This document shows, piece by piece, positions 213-30,566 of a DNA stretch of 64,000 nt (the stretch's first letter is position 1; each line of letters opens with the position of its first letter). Both the position numbers and the translations under genes were made by a program. The DNA is from a bacterium (GTDB lineage Bacteria; Patescibacteriota; Minisyncoccia; Phycocordibacterales; UBA5272), in assembly GCA_023267635.1 (NCBI GenBank), contig JAHFMX010000002.1, forward strand, positions 21,307 to 85,306, given 5' to 3'. The notes under the pieces were generated by a model. The model searched no databases and was not told the origin of the DNA. It worked only from the letters and a program-made list of their open reading frames with translations.

Positions 213-1967
213 TTATAGTTCGTTAATTTCAGTAAATGGAATAAGCCCCTTGATTGATTTTATAATCGCATCCTCTTTCATTGTCATCATTCCATGAGAA
301 CGAGCAAGTTTCCAAATCTCTTCCTCACCCTTACTGTGGAGCACCGCCTCCTGAACATCATCTGTAAACGTTAACACCTCAAACACAGGGACACGGCCTT
401 TCATTCCTGTTGGATGTGTCGCGTCTGCTTTTGCTTGATGAAGTGGTTTATCAAGAGGTAGCAACTTTCTATATTCTTCTGGCATGTCTTTAAACTGTTC
501 CTGAATCATAGTTCTCATACTGTCCGTTTCTGGAATCTCTTCTGCACACCCTTCTGCAATTTGACGCGACAAACGCTGACCAATCGTTGCGATAATAGTC
601 GGAGCAATAAGATACGATTCAATACCCATGTCCATCAATCGTGTAACCACACCGATAGCTGTGTTGGTGTGAATGGTCGAAAATACCAAGTGACCAGTAA
701 GAGCAGCTTGAATCGCAAGACCTGCAGTTTCTGCATCTCGAATTTCTCCCACCATAATCACGTCAGGATCTTGACGCAAAATAGAACGAAGTCCTGAGGC
801 AAACGTGTACCCAATTTCTGGAAACACCTGAGATTGGTTCATCGAAGGAACGTTGTATTCGATTGGATCTTCGAGAGACACCACGTTTCTGTGTTCACGA
901 TCCAGTTCGTTCAACATGGCGTAGAGCGTTGTTGTTTTTCCAGATCCCGTTGGACCAGAAATAAGAATGATACCGTACGGACGCGCAAGAGCTTCTCGAA
1001 TTGCTGTCATCTGACGCTCATCGAATCCAAGTGTGTCCACAGGACGAACTCCTTTATAGCTATCAAGGATACGAATCACCACCTTCTCTCCATAGTAACC
1101 AGGGAATGTCGACACACGATAGTCGATATTGTGGTCTCCTAGTTTTGTACTAAAACGTCCATCCTGAGGCTTTCGTTTCTCATCAAGTTTCATCGTACAT
1201 AAAATCTTCACACGAGCAATAAGCATTGGATGCATTTTTACAGGAAGTGTTGTAATGGTTTCAAGTTGACCGTCTAATCTCACACGAGCTCGCACCGCAG
1301 TACCGATATGTTCAATGTGAATATCAGATGCTCCATTATCAATCGCATAGCGCAAGATAATACTAAACACTTCAGGAATAGTGAGCTTCGCAAGATCTTT
1401 ATCTAAAATTTGTGACACATCTGAGAGATCTATATCTTCTCCAAGATTTTCAACTTCTTTTTCTGGTTCATCTTTTGAAACATACGAAAGTTTCTCTTCA
1501 CTCACTTTGTCAGTAAGAGAAGCTTTTGGATCAGGAGTGTCCACAGTGAGTCCAAAATGTCTCTTATACGAATCGTACGGAATAAGATACACCTTGTACG
1601 CTTGATGATCTGTACCGAAAAGAAATTGAAGACTGTCCAGCACATTTCCATGTTCTGGATCAACAACTCCAACCAACAATACTCCCTCAACCATTTCTAG
1701 TGGTACTGCGAGAAATTGTTTTGATTGAACAACATTAATATAGCGAGTAAGTTCTTTATCTTCTCCAATTTCCTTTCCGTATATTGGAAGCCCATACAGC
1801 ACAGAGCGAACCTGCATAATATCCTCCCCTGTAATTTGTTTTGCTTTCAACAAGTCATCAACGAGAACATCGTCGCGCACCGAAATATCAGACTCAATAT
1901 CCTTTGCTTCGAGTTCTGTTAACTTATTTTGACTAACGAAGAGGTCGAGTAGAAGCATATGGTACAA
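213..1967 (-). CDS. pilB: Type IV pilus assembly ATPase PilB/GspE family
   Basis: 584 aa. Walker A GPTGSGKTTT, Asp and His boxes, and a GspE N-terminal domain are present. Confidence 0.85.
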   Translation of the reverse strand: MYHMLLLDLFVSQNKLTELEAKDIESDISVRDDVLVDDLLKAKQITGEDIMQVRSVLYGLPIYGKEIGEDKELTRYINVVQSKQFLAVPLEMVEGVLLVGVVDPEHGNVLDSLQFLFGTDHQAYKVYLIPYDSYKRHFGLTVDTPDPKASLTDKVSEEKLSYVSKDEPEKEVENLGEDIDLSDVSQILDKDLAKLTIPEVFSIILRYAIDNGASDIHIEHIGTAVRARVRLDGQLETITTLPVKMHPMLIARVKILCTMKLDEKRKPQDGRFSTKLGDHNIDYRVSTFPGYYGEKVVIRILDSYKGVRPVDTLGFDERQMTAIREALARPYGIILISGPTGSGKTTTLYAMLNELDREHRNVVSLEDPIEYNVPSMNQSQVFPEIGYTFASGLRSILRQDPDVIMVGEIRDAETAGLAIQAALTGHLVFSTIHTNTAIGVVTRLMDMGIESYLIAPTIIATIGQRLSRQIAEGCAEEIPETDSMRTMIQEQFKDMPEEYRKLLPLDKPLHQAKADATHPTGMKGRVPVFEVLTFTDDVQEAVLHSKGEEEIWKLARSHGMMTMKEDAIIKSIKGLIPFTEINEL

Positions 1968-2265
1968 ACGGGTCTACGCGACCACGTGTATCGTTAGTTG
2001 AAATGATTTCTGAAAAATCACGAAGCTGTCGCACAAGCGCAGAGTCCATGAAATTCGCATCAGTGAACGAAATACGATCCTGATTTACGACTTTAAGGAA
2101 AAGTACAAAATTCTGTCCAAGTAATTGTTCGTTAATTTTAGTTTCAGAAACAGAAGCTGAATCTTCACTGAAACTTGTATACAGGTAATATGCTCCAAAT
2201 AGGAAAAGAATGAGAATTGCTCCTTCTATGATAACTGTCTTTTTTTGTACGAAAAATGATTGCAT
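1933..2265 (-). CDS. Small membrane-anchored pilus-operon protein (PilP-like?)
   Basis: 110 aa with an N-terminal TM segment. It sits between the pilO-like gene and pilB and overlaps the pilB start. Confidence 0.3.
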   Translation of the reverse strand: MQSFFVQKKTVIIEGAILILFLFGAYYLYTSFSEDSASVSETKINEQLLGQNFVLFLKVVNQDRISFTDANFMDSALVRQLRDFSEIISTNDTRGRVDPFVPYASTRPLR

Positions 2266-2274
2266 ATACGTGAA

Positions 2275-2826
2275 TTATTTTATGAAGTAGGTCTCGAGTC
2301 TTACCTGGTATGCAGTAGGATCACCTTCGCGCTCAGGAGCTGCAAAGGTAACAGATTGTATAGAAAAAAGTCTTAGACTTTTTTCAAACGTATCCATAAG
2401 AACTTTAAATTTTGGGTATGTTGTTTTAACGGTAAAAGAAATACCTGCTGACCCGCGACCGTTAGCGGTTGATGGTCCCTCTGAGTACGCAAGTTCGTTA
2501 AATGGAATCCCAGCTAGTACAGAAATGTTATACACCTCACTAAGCAGTCTTACTTTATCAATACTGTCAGGCACCATCACCTTCATCTTTGCCTTTTGTT
2601 CATCGGTAACACGAGAATACTGTGAGCGAAGCGTCTCTGCTTGTGTAAAGAGATTGTCTGCTTGGTTAAGCGTCTCATTATACTGATTCTTTAGTTCTCG
2701 AAGCGACTGAACACTTTCTGCTGGCTGCCATACACCACCAACACCTTTATACACTGGACCAATCAACAAATAATACACTGCGAATGTTCCAACGATGAGC
2801 AATAAGTTTAGGAGATTTTTTGACAT
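2275..2826 (-). CDS. pilO: PilO-like pilus assembly protein
   Basis: 183 aa. N-terminal TM, then a coiled coil, then a periplasmic domain. It lies between the pilN-like gene and pilB. Confidence 0.45.
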   Translation of the reverse strand: MSKNLLNLLLIVGTFAVYYLLIGPVYKGVGGVWQPAESVQSLRELKNQYNETLNQADNLFTQAETLRSQYSRVTDEQKAKMKVMVPDSIDKVRLLSEVYNISVLAGIPFNELAYSEGPSTANGRGSAGISFTVKTTYPKFKVLMDTFEKSLRLFSIQSVTFAAPEREGDPTAYQVRLETYFIK

Positions 2827-2833
2827 AGTAGTG

Positions 2834-3631
2834 TTACCTTTTTGGTGGGGTAGTTGTTCCTGTTGAAGTTGCCTTTACTGAGGAAGTTGTTGTCCCTGTA
2901 GTAGGAAGAGTCGGCATAGTTGATGAACTTGTCCCCATAATTGGAGAGGTTGAAGCAACTCGTGCCGCTGCACCATCAGAAAGATTAATGCCCTCTGGAA
3001 GAAGTCCAGCAATCATAATAGGCATCTTAAGTGTAAAGCCAATATTCCCCGTCTCATTAGGCTGAAGTCCTTCAACGCCTATCTCCTGAATATAGGTTGT
3101 GTACGGCTTACGCTTAAGTGTGTCTACTTGTTGGGCGATACTCTTGTAGTTAGGAGCAATACCACCTAGCTGGAGAGCGTACCCTTTTGTTTGTGTATTG
3201 TATCGCAACTCAAAACGTTCATACGTTACCTGATTTTCAATACTATCTTCAACAATACGAAAGGCAACGTTTGCCGATGGGTGCTCTTTAACTAATTGAT
3301 TAATTATTTTAATTCTATTAGAAAGCTTACGCATGTCTTCAAGTGGAAGTGTTGCAAGGCGTGATTCATAGTCCGCAAGTAATGCTTTCTTCGCATCAAT
3401 TTGAGATGAGAGATAATACTGATACCCGAAAAGTCCGACAGCAATTAACACTGCAACACCAAACACTGCCATCAGAACAAGTTGAACGAGTGATTTACCA
3501 TGTTCCCCTTCTCGTGCCATAAGACTCGATACCGCAGTTCCACCAAAAGAAGCTACTGGAGTAGGTACAGGGAGCGGAGCGTCTCCACTTGGGGTAGTTT
3601 GTGATATCTCTGGTTTGAATGAAAACGGCAT
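2834..3631 (-). CDS. pilN: PilN-like pilus assembly protein with Thr/Ser-rich tail
   Basis: 265 aa. Single TM (VAVLIAVGLFGYQYYL), a coiled coil, and a Thr/Ser-rich C-terminus. It is directly downstream of pilM. Confidence 0.5.
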   Translation of the reverse strand: MPFSFKPEISQTTPSGDAPLPVPTPVASFGGTAVSSLMAREGEHGKSLVQLVLMAVFGVAVLIAVGLFGYQYYLSSQIDAKKALLADYESRLATLPLEDMRKLSNRIKIINQLVKEHPSANVAFRIVEDSIENQVTYERFELRYNTQTKGYALQLGGIAPNYKSIAQQVDTLKRKPYTTYIQEIGVEGLQPNETGNIGFTLKMPIMIAGLLPEGINLSDGAAARVASTSPIMGTSSSTMPTLPTTGTTTSSVKATSTGTTTPPKR

Positions 3632-3652
3632 ACGTAAAGTGTGTGGTGAATC

Positions 3653-4735
3653 TTAGGGAATTAATTTCTTAAGCGCGCATCCAACGGCAACAGAGTATGA
3701 TGGACCAATTCGTTCAATCATCTCATGAAGAAACGGTGGCACATCTACCTGTTCAAATGGTGTCGCGATTCTTCCTGGAATGTGTACCGTCTCATTATAT
3801 GATTCAATCACTCCAGGGAGACGAGCTCCACCACCTGATAAAATTATCCCTTCAATAGTTTGATTATACTTTCTTTCGTACATAAGAGATAGACGTGCGA
3901 CCTCTCCAAACAGTGGATAACTAGAAAGTTGCATCACATCTTTTACATACGGATTCGTTGCGTCTCCTTTATATCCAAATGTACGTTTTGTTTCTTCTGC
4001 GGTATCAATTGGAATTGAAAGTGCTTTTGATAACTGAATAGTTCCATCTTGTGAGCCGCGACTTATCACGTGCATGTCGAGTACCGTGTTGTTGTGAATC
4101 AAAGAAAGTGTTGTATATTGCGCACCAATATCTACATACAGAACCATTCCAGCACTTTTCGGAGACACACTTCGCATCATAGAGTACCCTTGAATCTCAT
4201 ACTCAACGTTAGTGAGAGAAAGTTTTTTAATAACACGATCATACGTAGTGAGTGTTTCATTTTTCACCGCAGCGAGTACAACGTTAATCATGCGTTCGTT
4301 CGCACCAATATTTACTGTTGTAGGAATATGCCACCAATCCATCTGTACTTCTGACAATGGTATCGGAATATATTTACGAGCTTCAAACGGCATCATACTG
4401 CGAAGCTCATTATCGTCAACCTTAGGAACTTTTACGAGTGACACAAAGGCAGCGGATGAATCGATAGACACAACTGCATCTCGCGCTGTAATTTTTGCCT
4501 CCTTCATAACATCCTGTATCGCTTCCACAAGTTTTTCTTCGCCGAGATGAACAGCTTGTCCAGCAACCATGCCACCATATGGACCAAGTGCTATCTCTCC
4601 ATAGGTGTCAAGAATTATTTTTTCTTTCTCACGACGAAGTTGCACAACCTTAACGGAAGCACTTCCAATATCAAGCCCAATTGCTTGACCAACGTCTTCT
4701 TTTTTAAAGATGTTGAACATATGTGTAGTATACAC
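3653..4735 (-). CDS. pilM: Type IV pilus assembly protein PilM (actin-like ATPase)
   Basis: 360 aa. N-terminal IGLDIGSASVKVVQL and an ILSGGGARLPG actin/FtsA-fold motif. Confidence 0.75.
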   Translation of the reverse strand: MYTTHMFNIFKKEDVGQAIGLDIGSASVKVVQLRREKEKIILDTYGEIALGPYGGMVAGQAVHLGEEKLVEAIQDVMKEAKITARDAVVSIDSSAAFVSLVKVPKVDDNELRSMMPFEARKYIPIPLSEVQMDWWHIPTTVNIGANERMINVVLAAVKNETLTTYDRVIKKLSLTNVEYEIQGYSMMRSVSPKSAGMVLYVDIGAQYTTLSLIHNNTVLDMHVISRGSQDGTIQLSKALSIPIDTAEETKRTFGYKGDATNPYVKDVMQLSSYPLFGEVARLSLMYERKYNQTIEGIILSGGGARLPGVIESYNETVHIPGRIATPFEQVDVPPFLHEMIERIGPSYSVAVGCALKKLIP

Positions 4736-4753
4736 TCTTGTATCGCAGAGATT

Positions 4754-5386
4754 ATGTATACACTTGAAGATATGTGGATGATTCCCTCATTTTTTCAAAT
4801 ACTTTTTCCCTCGCAGTGCTTTGGCTGCAGAAAAAACAACACACCTCTTTGCCCTCGTTGCATACGACTCACCAGAAAATCTCTTTCATCTCCCTATCCG
4901 TACATCACTTCTATCTTTGACTTCAAAGACCCACTCATTAAGCGAGTCATTCACGCCAGTAAGTACTACCACCGCAAAGACTTACTGCCTCCTCTTGTTT
5001 TTGAACTCGCACAAGAGATGAAAAGTGTTCCAGACCTACATCTCTATACGTTAGTTCCCATTCCAATGCCACGTATACGAAAACTACTTCGCGGGTACAA
5101 TCAATCAGAACTTATTGCGCAACAACTTTCTAAACTTCTATCTATCTCTGTTTCAACTTCAATACTTATACGTACTAAAACACCTCTTCGCCAAGCAGTG
5201 ACAAAAACAAGAAGCGAGCGAATAAAAAACCAACATGGGAGTTTTGGTGTTGATGGCGAAATACACAGTACACACATCATCTTGATTGACGATGTAACAA
5301 CAACAGGAGCAACACTCGAAGAAGCCAGAAACGTTCTTCTTACAAATGGTGTGCAATCTGTCATCGCTTACACACTCGCTCATTAA
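4754..5386 (+). CDS. comFC: ComF family competence protein (phosphoribosyltransferase fold)
   Basis: N-terminal CxxC..CxxC zinc finger (CFGCRKNNTPLCPRC) and C-terminal PRTase motif ILIDDVTTTGATL. The start was moved to the ATG at 4754 because upstream codons overlap pilM. Confidence 0.6.
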   Translation: MYTLEDMWMIPSFFQILFPSQCFGCRKNNTPLCPRCIRLTRKSLSSPYPYITSIFDFKDPLIKRVIHASKYYHRKDLLPPLVFELAQEMKSVPDLHLYTLVPIPMPRIRKLLRGYNQSELIAQQLSKLLSISVSTSILIRTKTPLRQAVTKTRSERIKNQHGSFGVDGEIHSTHIILIDDVTTTGATLEEARNVLLTNGVQSVIAYTLAH

Positions 5387-5873: not shown

Positions 5874-6048
5874 ATACGTATAATTAATTTATAAGTGTCT
5901 TTCTTTAGTATACAACCATATATAGACAGAAAGAGATTTATACACACAGTGATATACATATAGATTGGATTTAGTAGTGCAAATAAGAATTTCACAAAAT
6001 ACAGAGCCACTTCCAGAAGAAAGTGACTCTGTACAATTTTCTTAGTTT

Positions 6049-8208
6049 TTACTCTACTTCTTTATCAGCAAATACCACTAATCGCTTGGAATAGCTTTTC
6101 TTAGATGGGTTCCAGACTCCATCACATGTAATGAGGTTAAGATGATTACCGTCATTAGATGTAAAAACCTCAGTGGCAACAGTATCTGGATCATACTGAC
6201 GGCTTTCCCGAACAACAAACGTGGTTATTACTCCTCTGTTATCTTCAACAAAAATTGAATCTCCTACGACTAGTTTATTCAAATCTTTAAACACTCCAGG
6301 CTTAATGACTTTTCCTCCACGAATCTGAGCAACGTGCCCAGAGATAACAGCATCACCGCGCTCACCAGGACGTTCACTCTCCTTAAACCACCCCACATCA
6401 GCAAGACCAGTAGGCCCCTCCATTTCTCCATCCAACTTACGTCCAGTATATTGAAACTTAGTATCGACTTTAATGGCTGGTATTTGTAGACGTACAGGGA
6501 ATCCGATATTTTTCGTATCCTTTTTTGTTTCTCCATGTACAACCATTCTGGTTGATTCTGTTGGGGTGCTTGACTGGCTATTGTTAACGGTTGAATCTCT
6601 CGTCTCAGGGGATTCATTCTTCTCTGTCGCCTGTAATGACGGAAGCATAGTTACATTAAACATATCTTCTGGTGCAGCATTAAAAATACTAACCACTCCC
6701 TGCCAAAGACTGCCAAACCAAGATATGATTCCCGTATTTGGTAATTTTGGAATTGTATCATTCTTCTTCGTATCATCATTCGTAATCGTACACGTTTTAT
6801 CATCACCCTTTTCTAAAACCACCTTACCATTTTCATCACAATCTCCGCCAAATGTTGCAGTGTACCCTCCAGAAAGGTCTTCGCTTACTTTGTATGTGCC
6901 TGAAGAAAGAGTGTACAAAGTTCCAGGCGCTTCAACCCCAACCGCAGGACTGCCTGCAACATCAGTCGTTTTAAAAAATGAAGAACTTTTAACGTGCATA
7001 GTAAAAAGATACGCTGTGGCAGTTCCTCCGTTGTCGTTTATGACATGTTTTATAATACGAAGTGTTGATGATGTAGCAGATGGCGTCGGAGTAGTTGTGG
7101 TCGAAGTATCATTGGGAGTGACAATTTTTCCAACGTCATCATTCGTAATCGTACACGTTTTATCATCACCCTTTTCTAAAACCACCTTACCATTTTCATC
7201 ACAATCTCCGCCAAATGTTGCAGTGTACCCTAGGAACACATCTTCACTCACAACATAGACAGCTGGTTTAAGAACATACGAAGTACCTGGGGCTTCGGCG
7301 CCAGCTGCTGGGCTTCCAACAACGTCCGCAATACCCATTCCAGTAGAACCTTTAACATGCAAAGTAAAGGAAGAGGCTGTGGTAGTGCCACCGTTGTCAT
7401 TAACAACATGCTTCACAACGTGAAGAGTTGAAGTCAAAGGAGGTGGAGGTACATCTGGCACAGAACACGTTGGTGCTGTTATAGTCACATATTTCATAAT
7501 GCCTGGATTTGTTTTAACTGCCCAATCATAAGCCAGAGCTCTACCAACCCACTTGGTACCGCCACCAACGGTAATATCAAAGTTTACAGGACCTATTGGT
7601 TGAATAACTGTTCCGATAAACTTCGTATCCGAACCGAGAGTAGTATAAGCAGAAGCTGGCGGTGCCAACTTTGGTGTCCAAAAAACATCGCAGGCAGATG
7701 CTCCGTTTTTAGCCGTAACAACCGATAGATTAGAGGTAGTTAGTGTCCCAGATGGGCGAAAGATAAAAGTTCCAACCCCATCAAGCTCAATCGTTTTACC
7801 ACCACCTATACTCATATTTCCGGGAGAGCAATATACTCCAGGTGTATAAACACCGAGGGCGCCGTGCGAAATATCAGTGGCGAGATCAACGGCACCACTG
7901 AACGTAAAGGTACACGCCTGACTATTGAGTGCAGAAAGTGCAATATGCTGATCAGTTCCCGCCTGTAAGTAGGTCGCGTTATTCATATGCGTCGCTCCAC
8001 TTATATACGCAGGCTGTCCTCCAAATACTGTATACCCAACATCTCCAAAAAGAGAAGTGCCATTAGAAATGTTTGCATTTGTAAATGTATACGAAAGAAC
8101 ACTGAATGGGTCTGCTGCGCCCAGAGATGGCGTAGTTGCTGCTTGCGCAAAATTTGCAAAACTGAATAGAGAAACCAAAAAAAATGCAACTACAAAAATA
8201 TGTTTCAT
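6049..8208 (-). CDS. Secreted fusion protein: DUF3494 (ice-binding-like) domain + 2 tandem ~121-aa repeats + LPNTG motif + TM + C-terminal sortase domain
   Basis: 719 aa. Signal peptide MKHIFVVAFFLVSLFSFANFAQA. The N-terminal domain resembles DUF3494 (YTPGVY). Two repeats begin with HVVKHVVNDNGG. LPNTG is followed by IISWFGSLWQGVVSIF. The C-terminus has sortase motifs (SGHVAQ, LNLITC) and is homologous to the sortase at 14329-14901. Confidence 0.6.
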   Translation of the reverse strand: MKHIFVVAFFLVSLFSFANFAQAATTPSLGAADPFSVLSYTFTNANISNGTSLFGDVGYTVFGGQPAYISGATHMNNATYLQAGTDQHIALSALNSQACTFTFSGAVDLATDISHGALGVYTPGVYCSPGNMSIGGGKTIELDGVGTFIFRPSGTLTTSNLSVVTAKNGASACDVFWTPKLAPPASAYTTLGSDTKFIGTVIQPIGPVNFDITVGGGTKWVGRALAYDWAVKTNPGIMKYVTITAPTCSVPDVPPPPLTSTLHVVKHVVNDNGGTTTASSFTLHVKGSTGMGIADVVGSPAAGAEAPGTSYVLKPAVYVVSEDVFLGYTATFGGDCDENGKVVLEKGDDKTCTITNDDVGKIVTPNDTSTTTTPTPSATSSTLRIIKHVINDNGGTATAYLFTMHVKSSSFFKTTDVAGSPAVGVEAPGTLYTLSSGTYKVSEDLSGGYTATFGGDCDENGKVVLEKGDDKTCTITNDDTKKNDTIPKLPNTGIISWFGSLWQGVVSIFNAAPEDMFNVTMLPSLQATEKNESPETRDSTVNNSQSSTPTESTRMVVHGETKKDTKNIGFPVRLQIPAIKVDTKFQYTGRKLDGEMEGPTGLADVGWFKESERPGERGDAVISGHVAQIRGGKVIKPGVFKDLNKLVVGDSIFVEDNRGVITTFVVRESRQYDPDTVATEVFTSNDGNHLNLITCDGVWNPSKKSYSKRLVVFADKEVE
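6773..7230. repeat. Intragenic tandem repeat: two identical 95 bp cores (6773-6867 and 7136-7230) spaced 363 bp apart
   Basis: Identical DNA runs tcatcattcgtaatcgtacacg...cagtgtaccc. They encode the repeated GGDCDENGKVVLEKGDDKTCTITNDD segment. Confidence 0.8.
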
Positions 8209-8288: not shown

Positions 8289-9029
8289 CTACGGCTTCAT
8301 CATCTCTCGTGGATATCCTATGCGTGGAGCAGTTTCTTGATTCTCGTCATACAATCTAATAGCAATGACGAAGAGGCCTGATTCTTGTTTCTGAAGAAAG
8401 AAGACCAACGAATCCCCCACTTCGTATACTGGTCTATCTTTTCTTGTTCTGTCAGAGATCATAAGCGTAACCTCATCTCCATTTGTAAGTGTAAGTTTAT
8501 ACACGTTTCCTTCTATTCCAAGAAGTGTTGCAGTGAGAATAAGTGGTGGTGCACGTTTTTTAAGCTGCATATGCATTGCTTCAATTCCTGGGAATCTCTG
8601 TGTTTGTCCAAAGCGTGCAATCTTTGATTCCTTATCAGCAATCAAAACGAGTGCGAAAAGAAACAGTGTAAAAAGTAATCCAAGCCCAAGCGTTGCGGCG
8701 ACTGGCTTCATATATGCAAATGCGAAATGACGCACCAGTACATGCAGAATAAGAAATACTGTCGTTACCAATATGATAAGTAGAAACGGTAGTGTGTAGA
8801 TAATTTCAAACACTGTCCGTGGCCCGAACGAAAGTGCTTCAAACAATAAATGCTCGCGAAGGAAGAACGCAACAAAACTTACCAAATACAAGAGCACTAG
8901 GAAAAGCGCAATCACGCCGAACACGATACCAAGCGTCATCAAGACAAAGTGCCACTTTGGTTTTTGTCGTATTGCCCCGCTTTCGATTTTCTTCAATATG
9001 AGATTGTGTATATTGTTAATGGTATTCAT
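8289..9029 (-). CDS. Putative membrane anti-sigma factor
   Basis: 246 aa multi-TM protein. Its start overlaps the ECF sigma gene stop by 14 nt, consistent with translational coupling. Confidence 0.35.
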   Translation of the reverse strand: MNTINNIHNLILKKIESGAIRQKPKWHFVLMTLGIVFGVIALFLVLLYLVSFVAFFLREHLLFEALSFGPRTVFEIIYTLPFLLIILVTTVFLILHVLVRHFAFAYMKPVAATLGLGLLFTLFLFALVLIADKESKIARFGQTQRFPGIEAMHMQLKKRAPPLILTATLLGIEGNVYKLTLTNGDEVTLMISDRTRKDRPVYEVGDSLVFFLQKQESGLFVIAIRLYDENQETAPRIGYPREMMKP

Positions 9030-9591
9030 GGATAGTTGTAGTTTCTAGTTTCACTAACTCGTACGCTTTTTTCTTCGCACGGTTAATACGCACACCAACT
9101 GACGATATAGGAATCTTGAGCACAAGAGAAATTTCTTTATATGAAAGCTCTTCAAAAAAATACAGCACAAGAATTTCTCTGTAGCTTTCAGGAAGCTTGA
9201 TAAGCACCTGTTCAATATCTTTTTTCAAAACTTCCAAATCAATCTTTTCTTCTGTCTTATCGTGATATGCAAAATATGGAACAAGAGCCTCAGGGTCAAA
9301 CCATGAGAACGGAGTAGACTTTTTCTTCTTCAAAGCGTTCAATGCTTCATTGTGAGCAATACGATACACCCACGAAGAAAATGTGTAGTTCTCATCAAAG
9401 CTTTGAATATTTATGTAGGCTTTGACAAGGACATCCTGAAGAACATCTGTAACAGCGTCATCGTCATGCAAAAATCGCCCTAGGTATCGTGTAAGCTTTG
9501 CCTCATAACGATTCATAAGCTCACCAAAGGCTTCGGTATCACCTTGTTGTACCTTTCGCACTATATCTATATCTGTGTAGGTGGCTGTCAC
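9016..9591 (-). CDS. ECF-type RNA polymerase sigma-70 factor
   Basis: Region 2 (VLQDVLVKAYINIQSF, FSSWVYRIAHNEALNALKK) and region 4 HTH (LSYKEISLVLKIPISSVGVRINRAKKK). Confidence 0.8.
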   Translation of the reverse strand: MTATYTDIDIVRKVQQGDTEAFGELMNRYEAKLTRYLGRFLHDDDAVTDVLQDVLVKAYINIQSFDENYTFSSWVYRIAHNEALNALKKKKSTPFSWFDPEALVPYFAYHDKTEEKIDLEVLKKDIEQVLIKLPESYREILVLYFFEELSYKEISLVLKIPISSVGVRINRAKKKAYELVKLETTTIHEYH

Positions 9592-12716: not shown

Positions 12717-12812
12717 CGTTGGTATCTTTGCGGAGGCATATTCATAGTCGCTCTTCGCTCCTTGAAATGCACTGCGCAAATTATGCCCTCGGTAACCCGA
12801 GAGGCTAATTTG
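12717..12812 (-). repeat. tRNA-3'-flanking structured element, copy 1
   Basis: Starts CTCCGCAAA at the tRNA 3' end, contains TTTGCGCAGTGCA, and ends GCCTCCGCAAAG. It holds nested inverted repeats (GCAAATTA/TAATTTGC enclosing CCTCTCGG/CCGAGGG). Confidence 0.5.
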
Positions 12813-12899
12813 CGGAGAATGTGAGATTCGAACTCACGGACCTAATAAAAGGTCGACGGTTTAGTAAACCGTTGGTTTAAACCACTCACCCAATTCTCC
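12813..12899 (-). tRNA. Type II (long variable arm) tRNA, Ser-like; the anticodon loop reads UUACUAA (apparent anticodon ACU)
   Basis: Reverse complement is GGAGAAT..ACGGT-TTACTAA-ACCGT-CGACCTTTTATTAGGTCCG-TGAGTTCGAATCTCACATTCTCC. T-arm and acceptor stem are intact. Confidence 0.55.
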
Positions 12900-12920
12900 A
12901 TATTGGTTTCTTTTTTATTT

Positions 12921-13006
12921 CCTTTGCGGAGGCAGAATGTGGTCGTGGGTACACTTGCCATTCTGCACTGCGCAAAATCTGGTCGTGCTCCGCACTCGCG
13001 ATTTTG
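12921..13006 (-). repeat. tRNA-3'-flanking structured element, copy 2
   Basis: Shares ctgcactgcgcaaaatctggtcgtg...cgcgattttgcggag with the copy at 54751-54833. It abuts the tRNA 3' end. Confidence 0.55.
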
Positions 13007-13093
13007 CGGAGACGGCGAGATTCGAACTCGCGAGGGATTTAACTCCCTGCCTCTTTAGCAAAGAGGTACGTTAGACCACTCTGACACGTCTCC
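13007..13093 (-). tRNA. tRNA-Ser (anticodon GCU)
   Basis: Reverse complement is GGAGACG..CCTCT-TTGCTAA-AGAGG-CAGGGAGTTAAATCCCTC-GCGAGTTCGAATCTCGCCGTCTCC. Long variable arm. Confidence 0.75.
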
Positions 13094-13289
13094 TAACGCC
13101 TTGTAAACTATGGTGTACCAAGTTTCCAAGTGATTTCTATACTACCATATTGAGGGTCTCTTCGCATCTGTAAGAATCCTCCTTCCTGAACGTCTCTACT
13201 GATATGAAACGACCACAAGAAGTGTTTTCTTTGTCGAGCAACTTTGCGCTGCTAACAATCATCAATTAACCATACTAACAGACATTTGC

Positions 13290-14321
13290 ATGAAAAAATT
13301 TACTAAACATTCTCTCGTGCTCGGACTTGCTCTCTCCTCAACTATCAGCTTAACAGGATTGTCCCTTTTTGCAGCAGGCCCAACGCCAGTAAATCTTTTA
13401 TCAGCAACTAACTTCGCCATTCTTGCAGGTTCAACCATAACCAACACAGGGTCAAGTGTGATTAACGGAGACATGGGATTAAGTCCTGGCACCTCTATCA
13501 CAGGGTTTCCACCTGGAACCTTAAACGGAACGCAGCATATCAATGATGCTACGGTTATACAGGCACAGAATGATTTAGTTACAGCATTTAATGCTGCCAA
13601 CCAAACACCAGTTTCTGTAGTACCTGCAGAACTTGGAGGAACAACAAAAACAACAGGCACCTACGAATCCGTAGATGGCTCATTTGCGATAACAGGAACA
13701 CTTACTCTTGATGCACAAAATGATCCTGATGCTGTCTTTATATTTAAATCAGCTTCTACACTCACTACCGCCGGGGCAAGTTCCATTGTTCTTCTTAATG
13801 GCGCACAGGCCTGTAACGTCATCTGGCAAGTTGGAAGCTCTGCGACACTTGGAACAAATTCTATTTTCAAAGGTACCATTGTTTCTTTAACATCTACTAC
13901 GATTACCACAGGAGCAAATGTTGAAGGGCGAGTGCTTGCACGTAATGGAGCTGTTACCGTAGATTCAAGCACGGTTACAAAACCAGTATGTGTTGCCGCT
14001 GTACCACCAGTCGTTACTCCAGTAGTAGTAGCGACATCCACTGTTGCCACAACAACAACAGCTACCACAACTAGTCCAGTGGTGACCACTACAGCCACAA
14101 GTACCCCTATCGTATTTGCAACCACAACAGTTGTTTTCGTTCCTCCAACAATCACACCTACAATAACTAGCCCAACGTTCACCATTTCTCCACAATTCCC
14201 AAATGCAGGAATGTCTCCTGAAGAAACGTCTCGGTACTGGGGCATCCTCAGTCTCGTTGTATCGTTATTCTCAGCTTCACTAGTAATTACACACCTCCAA
14301 AAAAGACAGCTGCTTCGCTAA
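13290..14321 (+). CDS. Secreted DUF3494 (ice-binding-like) protein with Thr/Val/Pro-rich stalk and C-terminal sorting signal (FPNAG + TM + KRQLLR)
   Basis: Signal peptide. DUF3494 signatures NFAILAGSTITNTG and GDMGLSPGTSITGF. C-terminal hydrophobic segment with a basic tail. A sortase gene lies immediately downstream. Confidence 0.6.
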   Translation: MKKFTKHSLVLGLALSSTISLTGLSLFAAGPTPVNLLSATNFAILAGSTITNTGSSVINGDMGLSPGTSITGFPPGTLNGTQHINDATVIQAQNDLVTAFNAANQTPVSVVPAELGGTTKTTGTYESVDGSFAITGTLTLDAQNDPDAVFIFKSASTLTTAGASSIVLLNGAQACNVIWQVGSSATLGTNSIFKGTIVSLTSTTITTGANVEGRVLARNGAVTVDSSTVTKPVCVAAVPPVVTPVVVATSTVATTTTATTTSPVVTTTATSTPIVFATTTVVFVPPTITPTITSPTFTISPQFPNAGMSPEETSRYWGILSLVVSLFSASLVITHLQKRQLLR

Positions 14322-14328
14322 GTCGTGT

Positions 14329-14901
14329 ATGACTACAAAAAAGATACTTCCAGTAGCCCTTATCGGAATACTCTTTCTCTCTGCTCTCTTTGTTATACAT
14401 GTTATCTCTCCACCCTCGCCCGTATCGATGACAACACGTCCTGGGACACCCACACGTCTTATTATTCCGAACATACACATTGATGCCCACATTGAGCAAA
14501 TCGGACTCACAGCAGATGGTGCAATGGACACACCCAAAGAAACAAGTAACGTCGGCTGGTTCATGTTTGGATCTCGCCCAGGAGAAATAGGCACAGCTAC
14601 TATGGCAGGACACTCTGGTTGGAAAAATAATAAGCCTGTAGTATTTGATTCACTTTCAGACTTACAAGTGGGTGATCTTGTATACGTCGAAAATACTGAA
14701 AAAATAATACATACTTTTGTTGTACGAGAAATGAGAATCTATGACGAGAACGCCGATACTATCTCTGTATTCACTTCATCTGACGGTATCCCCCATCTTA
14801 ATTTAATTACATGCAATGGAACCTGGAATGCTGAAAAGAAAAGCTATTCTAATAGAATTGTCATATTTACAGACAAACTACCAAGTACTGACATGCAGTA
14901 G
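14329..14901 (+). CDS. Sortase (transpeptidase)
   Basis: N-terminal TM, MAGHSGW histidine motif, LNLITC catalytic cysteine motif, and a downstream Arg. Confidence 0.75.
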   Translation: MTTKKILPVALIGILFLSALFVIHVISPPSPVSMTTRPGTPTRLIIPNIHIDAHIEQIGLTADGAMDTPKETSNVGWFMFGSRPGEIGTATMAGHSGWKNNKPVVFDSLSDLQVGDLVYVENTEKIIHTFVVREMRIYDENADTISVFTSSDGIPHLNLITCNGTWNAEKKSYSNRIVIFTDKLPSTDMQ

Positions 14902-17333: not shown

Positions 17334-17445
17334 CTATGCTTTTTTACCTTGACTTTTTACTGCTTTTATGCTATTATTAAGTAGTCACAATCCGTGGCAC
17401 AATTGTTTCGGCAATGTAAACCGAGTTGAACTTTTACAATGGAGA

Positions 17446-18399
17446 GCTAACATCATGACGATGCTTACTCAGCAAGAAAACGCAACCGAAGGTCAGCAAG
17501 AGCAAATCACCCGTGTTGCTGTCGACGCTGTCCGCAAGGCAGTAGCCGAATACTTCACGAAGCGGACACTGACGAAGGATGGTGCTCAAGCACTTCACGC
17601 AAACGGCAACAACATCGTTGCTGGCCTGCGTGACAAGGTCTTCGCCATGTACGACGAGATCACGGTCACCGACAAGTTCGCAGACGAAGAAATCAGCTCG
17701 AGCTACGTGTACCCGAAAGAGTACCGTGGTGTGAAGCCGATCGGCGCGCAGGTGGACATCTTGGCACAGGCTTTCGGTCTGTCACTCGGTTACACGAGCA
17801 ACTGGATCGAAAAGGTCTTGCCGACCTTGACGCTCCCCGAAGGAGCAGAAGGCTGGTTTGCCATCCCCTCGGTTGAAGCGATCGCAAAACGCCACTTCCC
17901 CGAAGTGACGGATCCTGTGGATCGCTATTGCCGTGCTGTCGAGCTCATCCTCGAAAAGCTCGGCAAGTCACGGTCGTTCTACAACTATCGTGAAGGCGAA
18001 ATCACGCCCCGTCAACTGCGTCAGCACGCACGGACCATCCACGCTCTCGACATCATCGTCGAACAGCAGAAGGGTGACATCCTGATCGTGCCTGCTCAGT
18101 TTGGAATGGGTCACCGTGGTCGCTCCGTTCGCCGTGCTCGTGAATGCTTCAAGGCAAACGAGTTCGGTCTCGGCGCTCTCGCTGTCGGCTCCATGGTGCT
18201 TACCCATCCCGAACGCTTCGTTCGTTGGGAACAGCTCCACACCGACTGCGCAGGTGACGAGTTCGCTCCGGGTGCGGTTGGCGAGTTCTGGGGCGCCCCG
18301 ATCTTCAGCTTCAGTGACGGCAAGCTCGAGTTCGGCACCGACGATGTGTCGTATGCGTGCGGCTACTGCGGTTCCGCCTCGGGGTTTCTTCCGCTGTGA
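17446..18399 (+). CDS. DGR target (variable) protein; C-terminal ~44 aa encoded by the VR; high-GC foreign-looking gene
   Basis: RBS GGAGAG before the ATG at 17446. GC is about 58% against about 38% locally. The 3' end is homologous to the TR with adenine-specific mismatches. Confidence 0.7.
   Translation, partial: ANIMTMLTQQENATEGQQEQITRVAVDAVRKAVAEYFTKRTLTKDGAQALHANGNNIVAGLRDKVFAMYDEITVTDKFADEEISSSYVYPKEYRGVKPIGAQVDILAQAFGLSLGYTSNWIEKVLPTLTLPEGAEGWFAIPSVEAIAKRHFPEVTDPVDRYCRAVELILEKLGKSRSFYNYREGEITPRQLRQHARTIHALDIIVEQQKGDILIVPAQFGMGHRGRSVRRARECFKANEFGLGALAVGSMVLTHPERFVRWEQLHTDCAGDEFAPGAVGEFWGAPIFSFSDGKLEFGTDDVSYACGYCGSASGFLPL
18262..18393 (+). repeat. DGR variable repeat (VR)
   Basis: 132 bp aligned to the TR. 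Every mismatch falls at a TR adenine (e.g. TR AAC against VR GGC/AGC/GAC/TGC/TAC). The shared 3' GC-rich end is ctacggttccgcctcggggtttcttccg. Confidence 0.8.
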
Positions 18400-18454
18400 T
18401 CCTTGGATCTTGGGGACTTGATTCTTTTGTTCCCTTGATTCTTGAATCCTTGAA

Positions 18455-18484
18455 CGGCTCGCTTGCGAGCCGTTTTTCTTTTGG
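18455..18484 (+). terminator. Hairpin/terminator downstream of the VR
   Basis: gaacggctcgc-tt-gcgagccg followed by ttttc. Confidence 0.5.
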
Positions 18485-18762
18485 CCGAAGGCCTCCGCAT
18501 ATTTTATATATTTGATATACTTATTAACGAGTCTAGGTTAGTGTATAGTAGTTCACGGATTGCTATCACCGAACTCTTTCTCCTATGAGAAATCACAATC
18601 AGATTTATAGTGATTACGGTTACTATAACAGTGTTGTTGCTCTAGAGATACTGCTTACTACTCTTCAAGACAAATGAGTAATCATGTTGTCAGATAAAAT
18701 ACAGAATCATGATTCATGTGCAATATCATGTTTCGTGGTTTGTGACATAGATGGAAAGTAGT

Positions 18763-18894
18763 AAAACTCCGGATGCGGATGGCAAGTTCTGGAACGCCCC
18801 GATCTTCAACTTCAATGACGACAAGCTCAAGTTCAACACCAACGATGTGTCGAATGCGAACGACAACTACGGTTCCGCCTCGGGGTTTCTTCCG
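18763..18894 (+). repeat. DGR template repeat (TR)
   Basis: Adenine-rich counterpart of the VR (aaaactccggatgcggatggcaagttctggaacgcc...). An incidental in-frame 54-codon ORF (18751-18915) overlaps it. Confidence 0.8.
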
Positions 18895-18913
18895 AAGTAT
18901 CGATTAGCAAAGT

Positions 18914-18943
18914 AAAAGGTATCCTGTTTAGGATACCTTTTAA
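18914..18943. terminator. Bidirectional terminator between TR and avd
   Basis: aaaaggtatcc-tgttt-aggatacctttt. Confidence 0.5.
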
Positions 18944-18944
18944 C

Positions 18945-19295
18945 TTACTTAGACATACTTGATTTTATCCACCCACCAAGCATTCGACCAATCTCATCAA
19001 TTATTCCTTGAAGTAAAGTATATTTCTTCATATCAAGACTTTTATTTTCTTTCATAAGACGAATAAAAAATCTTAATATATTAAGTCTTATGCTTGCCCT
19101 CTCAAGTAGATTATTCTTCTTTTCTTTGTAAGAATAGCTCGCTTCCAAAATAAGTTCTAAGATTTCGATGATTATATTTTCTGATCGTTCATATATCGAA
19201 AACCTTTCGTGTTTTGGGACTAATAATCTATATTCGTGGAATAGTTTATAGAGTTCGTGAATCTTTCTAAGTATAGGTACATCATTATCATTCAT
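18945..19295 (-). CDS. avd: DGR accessory variability determinant (Avd)-like four-helix-bundle protein
   Basis: 116 aa. Avd-like ..LYKLFHEY...ERFSIYERSENIIIEILELILEASYS...IRLNILRFFIRLMKE..IDEIGRMLGGWIK. Confidence 0.65.
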   Translation of the reverse strand: MNDNDVPILRKIHELYKLFHEYRLLVPKHERFSIYERSENIIIEILELILEASYSYKEKKNNLLERASIRLNILRFFIRLMKENKSLDMKKYTLLQGIIDEIGRMLGGWIKSSMSK

Positions 19296-22695: not shown

Positions 22696-22699
22696 ATAA

Positions 22700-24406: not shown

Positions 24407-24429
24407 AGGGTAGACATCTATGTATCGGC

Positions 24430-24582
24430 TATAACATTAAAAATGGGTAGCCGAGTGTCTACCCATAGGTTGGAGTCGCGAGGAGTCCAATCATGGAACT
24501 CAGCTACCCGTTTTTACCCACGATTGGTAAAACGAAGTAGCCTCGCGACTCTATTATCAAAAGAGAAACCTATGGGTAGACT
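24430..24582. repeat. Large imperfect palindrome with nested inverted repeats between mod and the recombinase
   Basis: gtctacccatagg (24457-24469) pairs with cctatgggtagac (24568-24580), and ggagtcgcgagg pairs with cctcgcgactc. Additional arms are present. Confidence 0.5.
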
Positions 24583-24621
24583 GTATGATTATATCACTTA
24601 ATTAATAATTTTTATAGGTCA

Positions 24622-27585: not shown

Positions 27586-27590
27586 ATTTG

Positions 27591-30550: not shown

Positions 30551-30566
30551 TTAAATAAAAAATATT

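What the first reader, a model, noticed from the sequence alone, without database searches (positions are those of the whole stretch)
6049..8208. Single polypeptide combining a sortase substrate (DUF3494 + repeats + LPNTG) with a sortase catalytic domain
The 719-aa secreted protein has an ice-binding-like DUF3494 head, two ~121-aa repeats with 95-bp identical DNA cores, and an LPNTG motif followed by a hydrophobic segment. That segment runs straight into a full sortase domain (His in SGHVAQ, Cys in LNLITC) instead of ending in a charged tail. The hydrophobic segment therefore serves both as the stop-transfer of the sorting signal and as the sortase membrane anchor. This implies either self-processing in cis or a housekeeping-sortase fusion. 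The perfect DNA identity of the repeat cores also points to recent duplication or ongoing recombination.
Basis: partly seen in the sequence, partly recalled or inferred. Interest (0 to 1): 0.55.

Follow-up and report, generated by a model that had tools for sequence, protein, structure and literature searches.

The report
Surface protein fused to its sortase
A candidate-phyla-radiation bacterium encodes a secreted surface protein whose cell-wall sorting motif (LPNTG) is followed, on the same chain and with no real membrane anchor, by the sortase-type enzyme that normally cuts such motifs; relatives show the same layout repeatedly, so the protein probably attaches itself to the cell surface.

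Summary
ORF 6049-8208 (-) encodes 719 aa: signal peptide, ice-binding-like (DUF3494) head, two 121-aa SpaA_2 repeats sharing a 96-bp exact DNA core, LPNTG, a 19-aa weakly hydrophobic helix, a 56-aa polar linker, and a complete sortase domain (His625, Cys695, Arg709).

It is not an artefact. The other two frames are full of stops. Two other assemblies give the identical gene. Twenty other proteins in at least four or five sortase clades of Patescibacteria share the architecture, and 20 of the 21 have [LFI]PxT[GA] 5-76 aa upstream of the sortase domain. A split orthologue pair exists (P0015 + P0121).

A cleaved signal peptide plus one membrane span would put the sortase in the cytoplasm. The segment scores KD 1.21 here and 0.65 in an orthologue, against 1.98 and 2.62 for the real anchors in this window. 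Its flanking charges are the reverse of a stop-transfer signal, and most homologous fusions lack it.

Best reading: the whole chain is exported, and the C-terminal sortase cuts its own LPNTG (within one molecule or between copies) and transfers the head-and-stalk passenger to the wall. That step is inferred, not shown. I found no description of such natural fusions. It is a new variant of a known kind and moderately interesting.

The parts
6049..8208 (-). Whole gene: 719-aa passenger-LPNTG-sortase single chain, including the stop codon at 6049-6051
   Evidence: ORF list. Identical protein and DNA in two other assemblies. Same architecture in P0002-P0004.
8140..8208 (-). Signal peptide, aa 1-23 (MKHIFVVAFFLVSLFSFANFAQA, AQA|A cleavage site)
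   Evidence: KD maximum 2.03. The AXA site is read directly from the sequence. No dedicated signal-peptide predictor was available.
7516..8022 (-). Ice-binding-like (DUF3494, PF11999) head, matched at aa 63-231; the domain probably spans about aa 27-250
   Evidence: Pfam 55.5 bits against a cut-off of 28.7.
7141..7431 (-). SpaA_2 prealbumin-like stalk repeat 1 (aa 260-356)
   Evidence: Pfam PF19403. Repeat-unit pattern.
6778..7062 (-). SpaA_2 prealbumin-like stalk repeat 2 (aa 383-477)
   Evidence: Pfam PF19403, second stretch. Pattern.
6773..6868 (.). 96-bp exact DNA repeat, copy A (tail of repeat 2)
7136..7231 (.). 96-bp exact DNA repeat, copy B (tail of repeat 1); probably overwritten by gene conversion
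   Evidence: The repeat tails differ in orthologue P0002.
6730..6744 (-). LPNTG sorting motif (aa 489-493)
   Evidence: IPKLPNTG is invariant in P0001-P0004. 20 of 21 fusions carry [LFI]PxT[GA] at this place.
6673..6729 (-). Weakly hydrophobic, amphipathic, aromatic-rich helix IISWFGSLWQGVVSIFNAA (aa 494-512); not a credible transmembrane span
   Evidence: KD 1.21. Hydrophobic moment muH 0.43, against 0.13-0.18 for real transmembrane segments. AlphaFold2 models a helix with pLDDT 51-56. S, W, F, W, Q and F are conserved in the four orthologues.
6505..6672 (-). Polar linker (aa 513-568)
   Evidence: KD below 0. pLDDT 46-64.
6052..6504 (-). Sortase catalytic domain (aa 569-719): His625 (nt 6334-6336), Cys695 (6124-6126), Arg709 (6082-6084)
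   Evidence: Pfam 75 bits. Best NCBIfam class is class_F, at 102.6 bits against a cut-off of 166. AlphaFold2 pLDDT above 90. Foldseek probability 1.0 to solved sortases. Triad invariant.
13290..14321 (+). Comparator: stand-alone DUF3494 substrate with a canonical tripartite signal (FPNAG + transmembrane segment + KRQLLR)
14329..14901 (+). Comparator: stand-alone sortase anchored by an N-terminal transmembrane segment, 50% identical to the fused domain
8289..9591 (-). Upstream same-strand neighbours: ECF-type sigma factor (9016-9591) and a 246-aa membrane protein (8289-9029). Linkage is seen only in this strain, so they are probably not part of the system.
   Evidence: Absent next to P0004 and P0071.

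Best explanation
The gene encodes a 'self-sorting' surface protein.

1. The Sec system exports the whole chain and the signal peptide is removed. No membrane span follows, so the head (DUF3494 beta-solenoid), the stalk (two SpaA-type Ig-like repeats), the LPNTG motif and the C-terminal sortase domain all end up outside the membrane.
2. The sortase domain (Cys695/His625/Arg709) attacks the Thr492-Gly493 bond of the LPNTG on its own chain, or on a neighbouring copy. This forms a passenger-LPNT~S-Cys thioester.
3. The enzyme transfers the passenger to an amine acceptor, most likely a peptidoglycan stem peptide or lipid II. The sortase domain is the leaving group.

The fusion therefore replaces the usual retention device (transmembrane segment plus basic tail on the substrate, transmembrane anchor on the enzyme) with a covalent tether between enzyme and substrate.

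Shown here: the architecture, its reproducibility and recurrence, the retention of the motif, the intact catalytic triad, and the absence of a credible membrane span.

Inferred: export of the whole chain, cleavage at LPNTG by the fused domain, the choice between cis and trans, and the acceptor.
For: - Architecture and catalytic residues.
- Sortase fold: modelled at pLDDT above 90 and matching solved sortases.
- Not an artefact: the other two frames are full of stops. The DNA is identical in two other assemblies. P0004 is identical in three assemblies. P0071 sits on a 1.6-Mb contig and also in an independent Logan assembly.
- Recurrence: 21 fusions fall into 5 all-fusion clades on a neighbour-joining tree of 142 sortase domains, with at least 4 changes between fused and unfused state.
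- Motif retention: 20 of 21 fusions carry [LFIVM]PxT[GA] within 100 aa upstream of the sortase domain, against 2 of 120 other sortases (Fisher 5e-21, not corrected for phylogeny). The motif occurs only 4 times in 13,291 aa elsewhere in the fusion proteins. It stays invariant inside otherwise variable linkers.
- No transmembrane segment between motif and enzyme in the 20 motif-bearing fusions (maximum KD 1.26 or less). The only fusion with transmembrane segments has two, which fits topological parity.
- The passenger family is a bona fide sortase substrate family. 45 of 108 unfused homologues end in motif + transmembrane segment + basic tail, with LPNTG the commonest motif.
- A split orthologue pair exists: P0015 (ending in LPNTG) is overlapped by the transmembrane-anchored sortase P0121, which is 66% identical.
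- The closest sortases include many SP-PG_binding_1-sortase proteins, so a sortase domain without a transmembrane anchor at the C-terminal end of a secreted chain is normal in this clade.
- AlphaFold2 model of the homologue P0101: the block containing LPKTG has higher pLDDT (74) than the following linker (60, then 47), and shows a beta-bridge. This is the signature expected if the motif segment packs on the enzyme.
Against: - No experiment and no model coordinates were available. For the window protein itself, AlphaFold2 leaves LPNTG and the helix undocked (pLDDT about 50).
- The P0101 signal is moderate, and I cannot show that the contact is in the catalytic groove.
- A second, stand-alone sortase lies 6 kb away (14329-14901) and could process the motif instead.
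- A soluble sortase released after one turnover would be an unusual and wasteful design.
- Retention of the motif could partly reflect where gene-fusing deletions can end.
- The conserved amphipathic helix of this clade is unexplained.
- The NCBIfam class F score is below its cut-off.
Confidence: 0.55

Rival explanations
1. Trans-processing by another sortase. The LPNTG is cut by a stand-alone, membrane-anchored sortase (for example the 14329-14901 enzyme or a housekeeping enzyme elsewhere in the genome), which anchors the passenger. The fused sortase domain is merely co-exported and released, and goes on to act on other substrates.
For: A second sortase, 50% identical, is present in the window. 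The window protein's LPNTG is not predicted to dock on its own domain. Fusions are rare compared with stand-alone sortases, with 0 among the 120 closest relatives of P0071 and 1 of 85 in the species representatives.
Against: The neighbouring sortase has its own adjacent substrate with a different motif (FPNAG) and a canonical transmembrane segment and tail. Without a transmembrane segment and tail, the fusion lacks the retention signal that a membrane sortase normally relies on. This reading does not explain why independent fusions keep the motif 5-76 aa from the enzyme. No other sortase gene lies next to the fusions in P0004 or P0071.
Confidence: 0.2
2. Polymerising or cross-linking sortase. 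The fused domain joins the passenger's LPNT carboxyl to a lysine or the N-terminus of another copy or of another surface protein. This would build a fibre or sheet rather than anchoring to peptidoglycan.
For: The stalk repeats are SpaA-type pilin-like domains with an E-box-like Y.V.E....GY motif. The best Foldseek hits are class C (pilus) sortases, though only marginally ahead of classes E, D and A.
Against: No YPKN-type pilin motif is visible in the sequence (direct reading). Unfused homologues carry ordinary wall-sorting signals. The class C NCBIfam score is only 19.8 bits.
Confidence: 0.12
3. The segment after LPNTG is a real membrane span that serves as both the stop-transfer of the sorting signal and the membrane anchor of the sortase.
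For: A 19-aa stretch rich in I, V, F and W directly follows LPNTG. AlphaFold2 models it as a helix.
Against: With a cleaved N-terminal signal peptide, one span puts the sortase in the cytoplasm. KD is 1.21, 1.26, 0.94 and 0.65 in the four orthologues, against 1.98-2.7 for genuine anchors. Lys residues flank it on the N-side and Glu/Asp on the C-side. A Glu lies inside the segment in P0004. The segment is absent from most other fusions.
Confidence: 0.04
4. Artefact or neutral accident: an assembly or frameshift join, or a recently fused and decaying gene with no function as a unit.
For: Adjacent substrate and sortase genes with overlapping stop and start codons (L001) could be fused by small deletions. 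One fusion (P0271) has a degenerate motif.
Against: The sequence is identical in three assemblies. Orthologues at 74% and 58% identity keep the whole architecture, the motif and the triad. There are no stops or alternative reading frames.
Confidence: 0.03
5. Auto-inhibitory pseudo-substrate. The upstream LPNTG occupies the groove like the lid of class C sortases and regulates the enzyme rather than being cleaved.
For: In class C sortases an N-terminal segment covers the active site (my own knowledge). The motif segment appears to pack on the domain in the P0101 model.
Against: The motif is a perfect substrate consensus, identical to that of unfused substrates. Nothing suggests it would resist cleavage.
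Confidence: 0.05

Closest known systems
Canonical adjacent substrate and sortase gene pairs. Examples here are window 13290-14321 / 14329-14901, and the split orthologue P0015 + P0121 in L001/L002.
   Same: The same passenger family (DUF3494, with or without SpaA_2 repeats), the same type of motif ([LF]PN[TA]G), and the same sortase family (50-66% identity). The substrate gene lies immediately upstream of the enzyme gene.
   Different: In these pairs the two proteins are separate. The enzyme has an N-terminal transmembrane anchor, and the window's substrate has a transmembrane segment and basic tail. In the fusion both anchors are gone and the enzyme replaces the tail.
Class F sortases (NCBIfam NF033748), the family that NCBI uses to name many Patescibacteria sortases
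   Same: It is the best-scoring sortase class for the fused domain (102.6 bits over model positions 10-153 of 155), and the His/Cys/Arg triad is present.
   Different: The score is below the 166-bit cut-off. The domain has no N-terminal anchor of its own and sits behind a 568-aa passenger.
Secreted PG_binding_1-sortase proteins of Patescibacteria (P0128, P0130, P0131, P0134 and others)
   Same: They are among the closest sequence relatives (up to about 62% identity in the sortase domain, against 66% for the anchored P0121). The sortase domain is at the C-terminal end of a signal-peptide-bearing chain with no internal transmembrane segment.
   Different: The N-terminal module is a small peptidoglycan-binding domain, and there is no LPXTG upstream.
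Engineered self-cleaving sortase fusions used in protein purification and display (for example PMC10726597; Mao 2004, from my own knowledge)
   Same: Enzyme and LPXTG are on one chain, and cleavage releases the two halves.
   Different: These are man-made, with the order tag-SrtA-LPXTG-target. Here the order is passenger-LPXTG-sortase, and the design is natural and recurrent.
C-terminal autoprocessing domains such as Hedgehog HhC/Hint (my own knowledge; an analogy of logic only)
   Same: A C-terminal Cys-dependent domain forms a thioester at the junction and transfers the N-terminal passenger to an acceptor. The enzyme half is discarded.
   Different: The fold and chemistry are unrelated, and there is no homology.
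Read-through fusion L079_4447 (Saccharibacteria)
   Same: The substrate-like passenger, an FPETG motif and the sortase lie in one stop-free ORF.
   Different: It keeps both transmembrane segments (KD 2.7 and 2.2) and the basic cytoplasmic loop. It also carries PG_binding_1 and a second sorting signal after the sortase.

Membership tests
Sortase (Pfam PF04203 / MEROPS C60 cysteine transpeptidase) | Profile match above the curated cut-off | tested here: met
   75 bits against 26.6, aa 574-716, model positions 1-124 of 125.
Sortase (Pfam PF04203 / MEROPS C60 cysteine transpeptidase) | Catalytic His, Cys (TLxTC-type motif) and Arg | tested here: met
   His625, Cys695 (LNLITC) and Arg709 are present and invariant in 142 aligned domains.
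Sortase (Pfam PF04203 / MEROPS C60 cysteine transpeptidase) | Eight-stranded beta-barrel sortase fold | tested here: met
   AlphaFold2 pLDDT above 90 over aa 569-719. Foldseek probability 1.0, with TM-score 0.5-0.74 normalised by target length, to solved sortases of classes A, C, D and E.
Sortase (Pfam PF04203 / MEROPS C60 cysteine transpeptidase) | Own N-terminal membrane anchor or signal anchor (type II topology) | tested here: not met
   The domain is preceded by a 568-aa exported passenger. The only nearby hydrophobic stretch has KD 1.21.
Sortase (Pfam PF04203 / MEROPS C60 cysteine transpeptidase) | Transpeptidase activity on an LPXTG-type motif | not testable with these tools
   This needs biochemistry.
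Class F sortase (NCBIfam NF033748) | Score at or above the curated subfamily cut-off | tested here: not met
   102.6 bits against a cut-off of 166. It is still the best of all classes (class E 33 bits, class C 20 bits).
LPXTG cell-wall sorting signal (tripartite C-terminal signal) | LPXTG pentapeptide | tested here: met
   LPNTG at aa 489-493. This is the commonest motif among unfused homologues.
LPXTG cell-wall sorting signal (tripartite C-terminal signal) | Hydrophobic membrane-spanning segment after the motif | tested here: not met
   KD maximum 1.21, and 0.65-1.26 in orthologues, against 1.98 in the window's canonical substrate. No dedicated transmembrane predictor was available.
LPXTG cell-wall sorting signal (tripartite C-terminal signal) | Short positively charged tail at the extreme C-terminus | tested here: not met
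   The segment is followed by PEDMF... and a further 207 residues. No NCBIfam LPXTG-anchor model was hit.
Ice-binding-like / DUF3494 (PF11999) | Profile match above the cut-off | tested here: met
   55.5 bits against 28.7, a partial match to model positions 47-200 of 208.
Ice-binding protein proper (NCBIfam NF045625 IBP_CFB equivalog) | Equivalog score | tested here: not met
   18.3 bits against 400. No claim of ice binding is justified.
SpaA_2 prealbumin-like fold domain (PF19403) | Profile match above the cut-off | tested here: met
   46.3 bits against 25, in two stretches.
Sortase-assembled pilin | Pilin motif with a nucleophilic Lys (YPKN-type), plus a sorting signal and a class C sortase | tested here: not met
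   No YPK motif is present in the sequence. The class C model scores 19.8 bits against 160.

The most novel reading that the evidence does not exclude
Patescibacteria have repeatedly evolved natural single-chain sortase modules that lack any transmembrane segment. In these, a C-terminal sortase domain cuts the LPXTG immediately upstream on its own polypeptide (in cis, single turnover) and ligates its own passenger to the cell wall or another acceptor. This would be a Hedgehog-like autoprocessing logic built on the sortase fold. It would imply that these sortases can work in the wall compartment without membrane anchoring.
Probability: 0.4. Interest if true: 0.75.

Novelty: new variant of a known kind. 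Interest (0 to 1): 0.6.

Why it matters
Textbook sortase biology assumes two membrane-held partners: a type II anchored enzyme, and a substrate parked by a transmembrane segment and a basic tail.

A recurrent natural design drops both anchors and tethers enzyme to substrate covalently. It would show that membrane retention is dispensable. It would point to wall-resident sortase chemistry in the ultrasmall, episymbiotic CPR bacteria, whose surface proteins probably mediate host attachment. It would also offer ready-made self-ligating protein modules for biotechnology.

The finding gives a clear wet-lab test (C695A and LPNTG mutants), and the constructs are small enough to express.

Tried and rejected
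1. Frameshift or assembly join. The other two frames across 6400-6850 are full of stops and encode no tail, stop codon or transmembrane start. The gene is identical in two other assemblies. Rejected.

2. The hydrophobic segment as a vestige of a PG_binding_1 domain. BLAST alignments to PG_binding-sortase proteins ran through it (LPNTGIISWFGS..LWQ against LKNTAPTGYFG..AWQ). However, profile-profile comparison aligned only the 17 residues at the start of the sortase domain, and Pfam at E up to 10 found no PG_binding_1 match in the junction (one spurious Ntox17 match at E 0.15). Not supported.

3. Tracing the origin of the linker by aligning DNA of the fused genes (window, P0004) against the split pair (L001). 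No homology was recognisable between LPNTG and the start of the sortase domain.

4. Conserved operon with the ECF sigma factor and membrane protein. This is seen only in this strain's contigs and not next to P0004 or P0071.

5. P0370 as a second split pair for the P0071 clade. It is not adjacent to a DUF3494 gene.

6. Sequence search of the PDB. It gave only marginal hits (E 3e-3), so fold search was needed.

7. AlphaFold2 docking of the window's own LPNTG. The profile is flat at low confidence and therefore uninformative.

8. Literature. Five searches and three paper look-ups found no natural passenger-LPXTG-sortase fusion. The library is incomplete, so this is absence of evidence only.

9. 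Searches seeded with the sortase domains of P0001 and P0071 returned only stand-alone sortases as new hits. The fused form is therefore a small minority.
Full report
**What is there**

On the minus strand, 6049-8208 is a single ATG-initiated ORF of 719 aa. Pfam finds an ice-binding-like DUF3494 domain (aa 63-231, E 8e-15), two SpaA_2 prealbumin-like stretches (E 6.5e-12) and a full-length sortase domain (aa 574-716, E 5.8e-21). All three are above their gathering scores. Among NCBI's sortase classes the best is class F, at 102.6 bits. That is below the 166-bit cut-off, so I call the domain class-F-like rather than class F.

The N-terminus (MKHIFVVAFFLVSLFSFANFAQA|ATTP) is a typical Sec signal with an AXA site (KD 2.03). 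LPNTG is at aa 489-493 (nt 6730-6744). His625 (SGHVAQ), Cys695 (LNLITC) and Arg709 (KRLVV) are present.

The two stalk repeats have a 363-nt (121-aa) period. Their longest exact DNA match is 96 bp (6773-6868 = 7136-7231), inside units that are otherwise about 66% identical. The 'hydrophobic segment' (aa 494-512) is weak. A 56-aa polar linker (aa 513-568) separates it from the sortase domain.

**It is real**

The other two reading frames across the junction are full of stops. They encode no charged tail, stop codon or new start with a membrane anchor. The same 2160-bp gene, with 6-7 kb of flanking sequence, is 100% identical in two other metagenome assemblies. This also argues against a collapsed or expanded repeat number.

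Proteins at 74% (P0002) and 58% (P0003, P0004) identity cover 100% of the query with the same three Pfam domains. P0004 is itself found identical in three separate assemblies.

**It recurs**

Among 369 proteins collected, 21 are passenger-sortase fusions. Named sources include Peregrinibacteria (P0017) and Gracilibacteria (P0071, on a 1.62-Mb contig).

On a rough neighbour-joining tree of 142 sortase domains, the fusions form five separate all-fusion clades. At least four changes between fused and unfused state are needed. This tree is distance-based and the stand-alone set was sampled by similarity, so the number is indicative only.

The window's clade (P0001-P0004) sits next to P0121, an ordinary 213-aa sortase with a transmembrane anchor that is 66% identical. 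The P0121 gene overlaps by 4 bp the end of P0015, a 606-aa DUF3494-SpaA_2 protein ending in KLPNTG plus 27 residues.

Fused forms are a minority. None appeared among the 120 new closest relatives of the P0071 sortase domain. Only one appeared among 85 sortase ORFs in the 80 best loci from GTDB species representatives, which are mostly Patescibacteria.

**The motif is retained**

Twenty of the 21 fusions carry [LFI]PxT[GA] (LPNTG, LPKTG, FPNTG, LPDTG, LPSTG, IPETG or LPNTA) 5-76 residues upstream of the sortase domain. The exception (P0271) has a degenerate LTVPTG. The same pattern occurs upstream of the sortase domain in only 2 of 120 other sortases (Fisher 5e-21; the sequences are related, so this overstates independence). 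It occurs only 4 times in 13,291 residues elsewhere in the fusion proteins.

In the four orthologues, IPKLPNTG is invariant while most of the following linker varies. His, Cys and Arg are invariant in all 142 domains, including all 21 fusions.

The passenger family is a genuine substrate family. 45 of 108 unfused homologues end in a motif, a transmembrane segment and a basic tail, and LPNTG is the commonest motif.

**Why the dual-use membrane segment fails**

1. Topology. A cleaved N-terminal signal peptide puts the passenger and LPNTG outside. One following span would then put the sortase domain in the cytoplasm, where it has no known substrate.

2. Hydrophobicity. The Kyte-Doolittle 19-residue maximum is 1.21 here and 1.26, 0.94 and 0.65 in P0002-P0004; P0004 has a Glu inside the segment. 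The two real anchors of the stand-alone pair in this window score 1.98 and 2.62.

3. Charge. Lys residues precede the segment (TKKNDTIPK) and Glu/Asp follow it (PEDMF...). This is the reverse of a stop-transfer signal (direct reading).

4. Comparison. Most other fusions have no hydrophobic stretch at all. For example, P0017 has LPNTA followed by about 8 residues before the sortase domain, and P0071 has LPKTG followed by about 7.

5. The instructive exception. A Saccharibacteria read-through fusion (L079_4447) keeps FPETG, a strong transmembrane segment (KD 2.7), a basic loop and a second strong transmembrane segment (KD 2.2) before the sortase.

In this sample fusions have zero or two spans and never one, as topological parity requires. 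What is conserved in the window's segment is an aromatic amphipathic pattern (S-W-F..W-Q....F; hydrophobic moment muH 0.41-0.50, against 0.13-0.18 for real anchors). AlphaFold2 models it as an isolated helix of low confidence. Its role is unexplained. An in-plane membrane-surface helix that holds the scissile site near lipid II is possible but untested.

**How it most likely works**

Many of the closest sortases in sequence are not the anchored type. They are secreted chains of signal peptide, PG_binding_1 domain, linker and sortase. A sortase domain with no transmembrane anchor at the C-terminal end of an exported protein is therefore normal in this lineage.

I infer that the whole 719-aa chain is exported. 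The C-terminal domain then attacks the Thr492-Gly493 bond on its own chain, or on a neighbouring copy, and carries the passenger as a thioester on Cys695. It passes the passenger to an amine, most likely a peptidoglycan stem peptide. The sortase half is the leaving group. The covalent tether would replace the retention function of the transmembrane segment and basic tail.

Support from modelling is limited. The sortase domain is confidently a sortase fold (pLDDT above 90; Foldseek probability 1.0 to solved class C, E, D and A sortases). The window's own LPNTG is not docked (pLDDT about 50). In a homologue with a 26-residue linker (P0101), the block containing LPKTG has higher confidence (74) than the linker behind it (60, then 47) and forms a beta-bridge. 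I had specified this non-monotonic profile in advance as the sign of packing against the enzyme. I could not inspect coordinates, so contact with the catalytic groove is not shown.

**Rivals**

- Another sortase cuts the motif. The window has a second sortase, 50% identical, at 14329-14901, but it sits beside its own canonical substrate with an FPNAG motif.
- The enzyme polymerises the passenger. The stalk domains are pilin-like, but there is no pilin Lys motif and the class C score is low.
- The motif acts as a lid-like inhibitor.
- The fusion is a neutral accident.

None is excluded by experiment.

**The repeat core**

In P0002 the tails of repeats 1 and 2 differ...SGDCDSNGNVTLLSGGSKTCTITN against ...SGDCDENGKVILENGDDKTCTITN. 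In the window both read GGDCDENGKVVLEKGDDKTCTITN. The 96-bp identity is therefore best explained by a lineage-specific gene conversion of repeat 1 by repeat 2, and not by a recent whole-unit duplication.

**Context**

Upstream on the same strand lie an ECF-type sigma factor (9016-9591) and a 246-aa membrane protein (8289-9029). Downstream is a 146-aa secreted protein. This arrangement is seen only in this strain's contigs and not next to P0004 or P0071, so I do not count it as part of the system.

**Comparison with what is known, and novelty**

The parts are all known: Sec signal, DUF3494 head, SpaA-type stalk, LPXTG motif and sortase. Adjacent substrate-sortase gene pairs are standard, and sortases are known to be common in CPR bacteria (PMC6744442).

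What differs is that enzyme and substrate are on one chain, both membrane anchors are lost, and the motif is kept. The nearest analogues are man-made self-cleaving sortase fusions (for example PMC10726597, listed) and, in logic only, Hedgehog-type C-terminal autoprocessing domains (my own knowledge).

Five literature searches and three paper look-ups found no description of natural fusions of this kind. The library is incomplete. Public annotation calls these proteins only 'ice-binding family protein' or 'sortase domain-containing protein'.

I file it as a new variant of a known kind, with interest 0.6.

Noticed in passing
window 17368-20348: A diversity-generating retroelement. ORF 17368-18399 (+) ends in a 128-nt variable repeat (18266-18393). 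A template repeat lies at 18767-18894. Every mismatch within the 128-nt repeat is a template A changed to G or T in the variable copy. A reverse transcriptase (RVT_1, 19257-20348) follows.
   Followed up: partly
window ~20400-32000: A low-GC island (0.30-0.35 against about 0.41 elsewhere). It carries a ResIII helicase, two N6/N4 DNA methylases, a large serine recombinase, a terminase-like/DEAD protein, an S24 (LexA/CI-like) peptidase and a caspase/CHAT-domain protein. It looks like an integrated mobile element or defence island.
   Followed up: partly
window 12812-14901: The canonical DUF3494 substrate (FPNAG + transmembrane segment + KRQLLR) and its transmembrane-anchored sortase lie directly beside two tRNA-Ser genes (12812-12899 and 13006-13093). 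The substrate motif has Ala instead of Thr.
   Followed up: partly
L079 (CAZRJD010000004.1, Saccharibacteria), stop-free ORF starting at locus position 4447: One stop-free ORF encodes passenger, FPETG, a transmembrane segment, a basic loop, a second transmembrane segment, sortase, PG_binding_1, LPNAG, a third transmembrane segment and RR. It is a read-through substrate-sortase fusion that keeps both anchors, and the sortase half itself ends in a sorting signal.
   Followed up: partly
P0124-P0173 and others; L018: A large group of Patescibacteria sortases have a signal peptide, a PG_binding_1 domain, a linker and then the sortase domain, with no transmembrane anchor. This suggests sortases that are held on peptidoglycan rather than in the membrane.
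   Followed up: partly
window 6778-7431 (stalk repeats, aa 260-477): Each SpaA_2 repeat carries a Lys in the first strand (LHVVK / LRIIK), an E-box-like Y.V.E....GY and an Asn in the last strand (CTITN), plus two Cys. This is the pattern of CnaB-type intramolecular isopeptide domains. It was found in 244 units from 109 of 120 homologues. Bond formation was not tested.
   Followed up: no
window 6673-6729 (aa 494-512): A conserved aromatic amphipathic helix (S-W-F..W-Q....F) directly follows LPNTG in the four orthologues. Similar short aromatic stretches occur in P0080, P0082, P0117 and P0267 but not in the short-linker fusions. Its function is unknown.
   Followed up: partly
L001/L002 positions 5900-6010 (P0015 C-terminus): The split orthologue's substrate ends in LPNTG plus a 27-residue tail (VLFPAGFLEGYRYILERFLKGANLLNI). 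The tail is not a convincing membrane span and has no basic end, so it is a non-canonical sorting signal even in the unfused form.
   Followed up: no
window 213-4735: Type IV pilus genes lie close to the fusion gene: a T2SSE/PilB-like ATPase (213-1967) and PilM (3653-4735). A ComF-like phosphoribosyltransferase ORF lies at 4547-5386.
   Followed up: no
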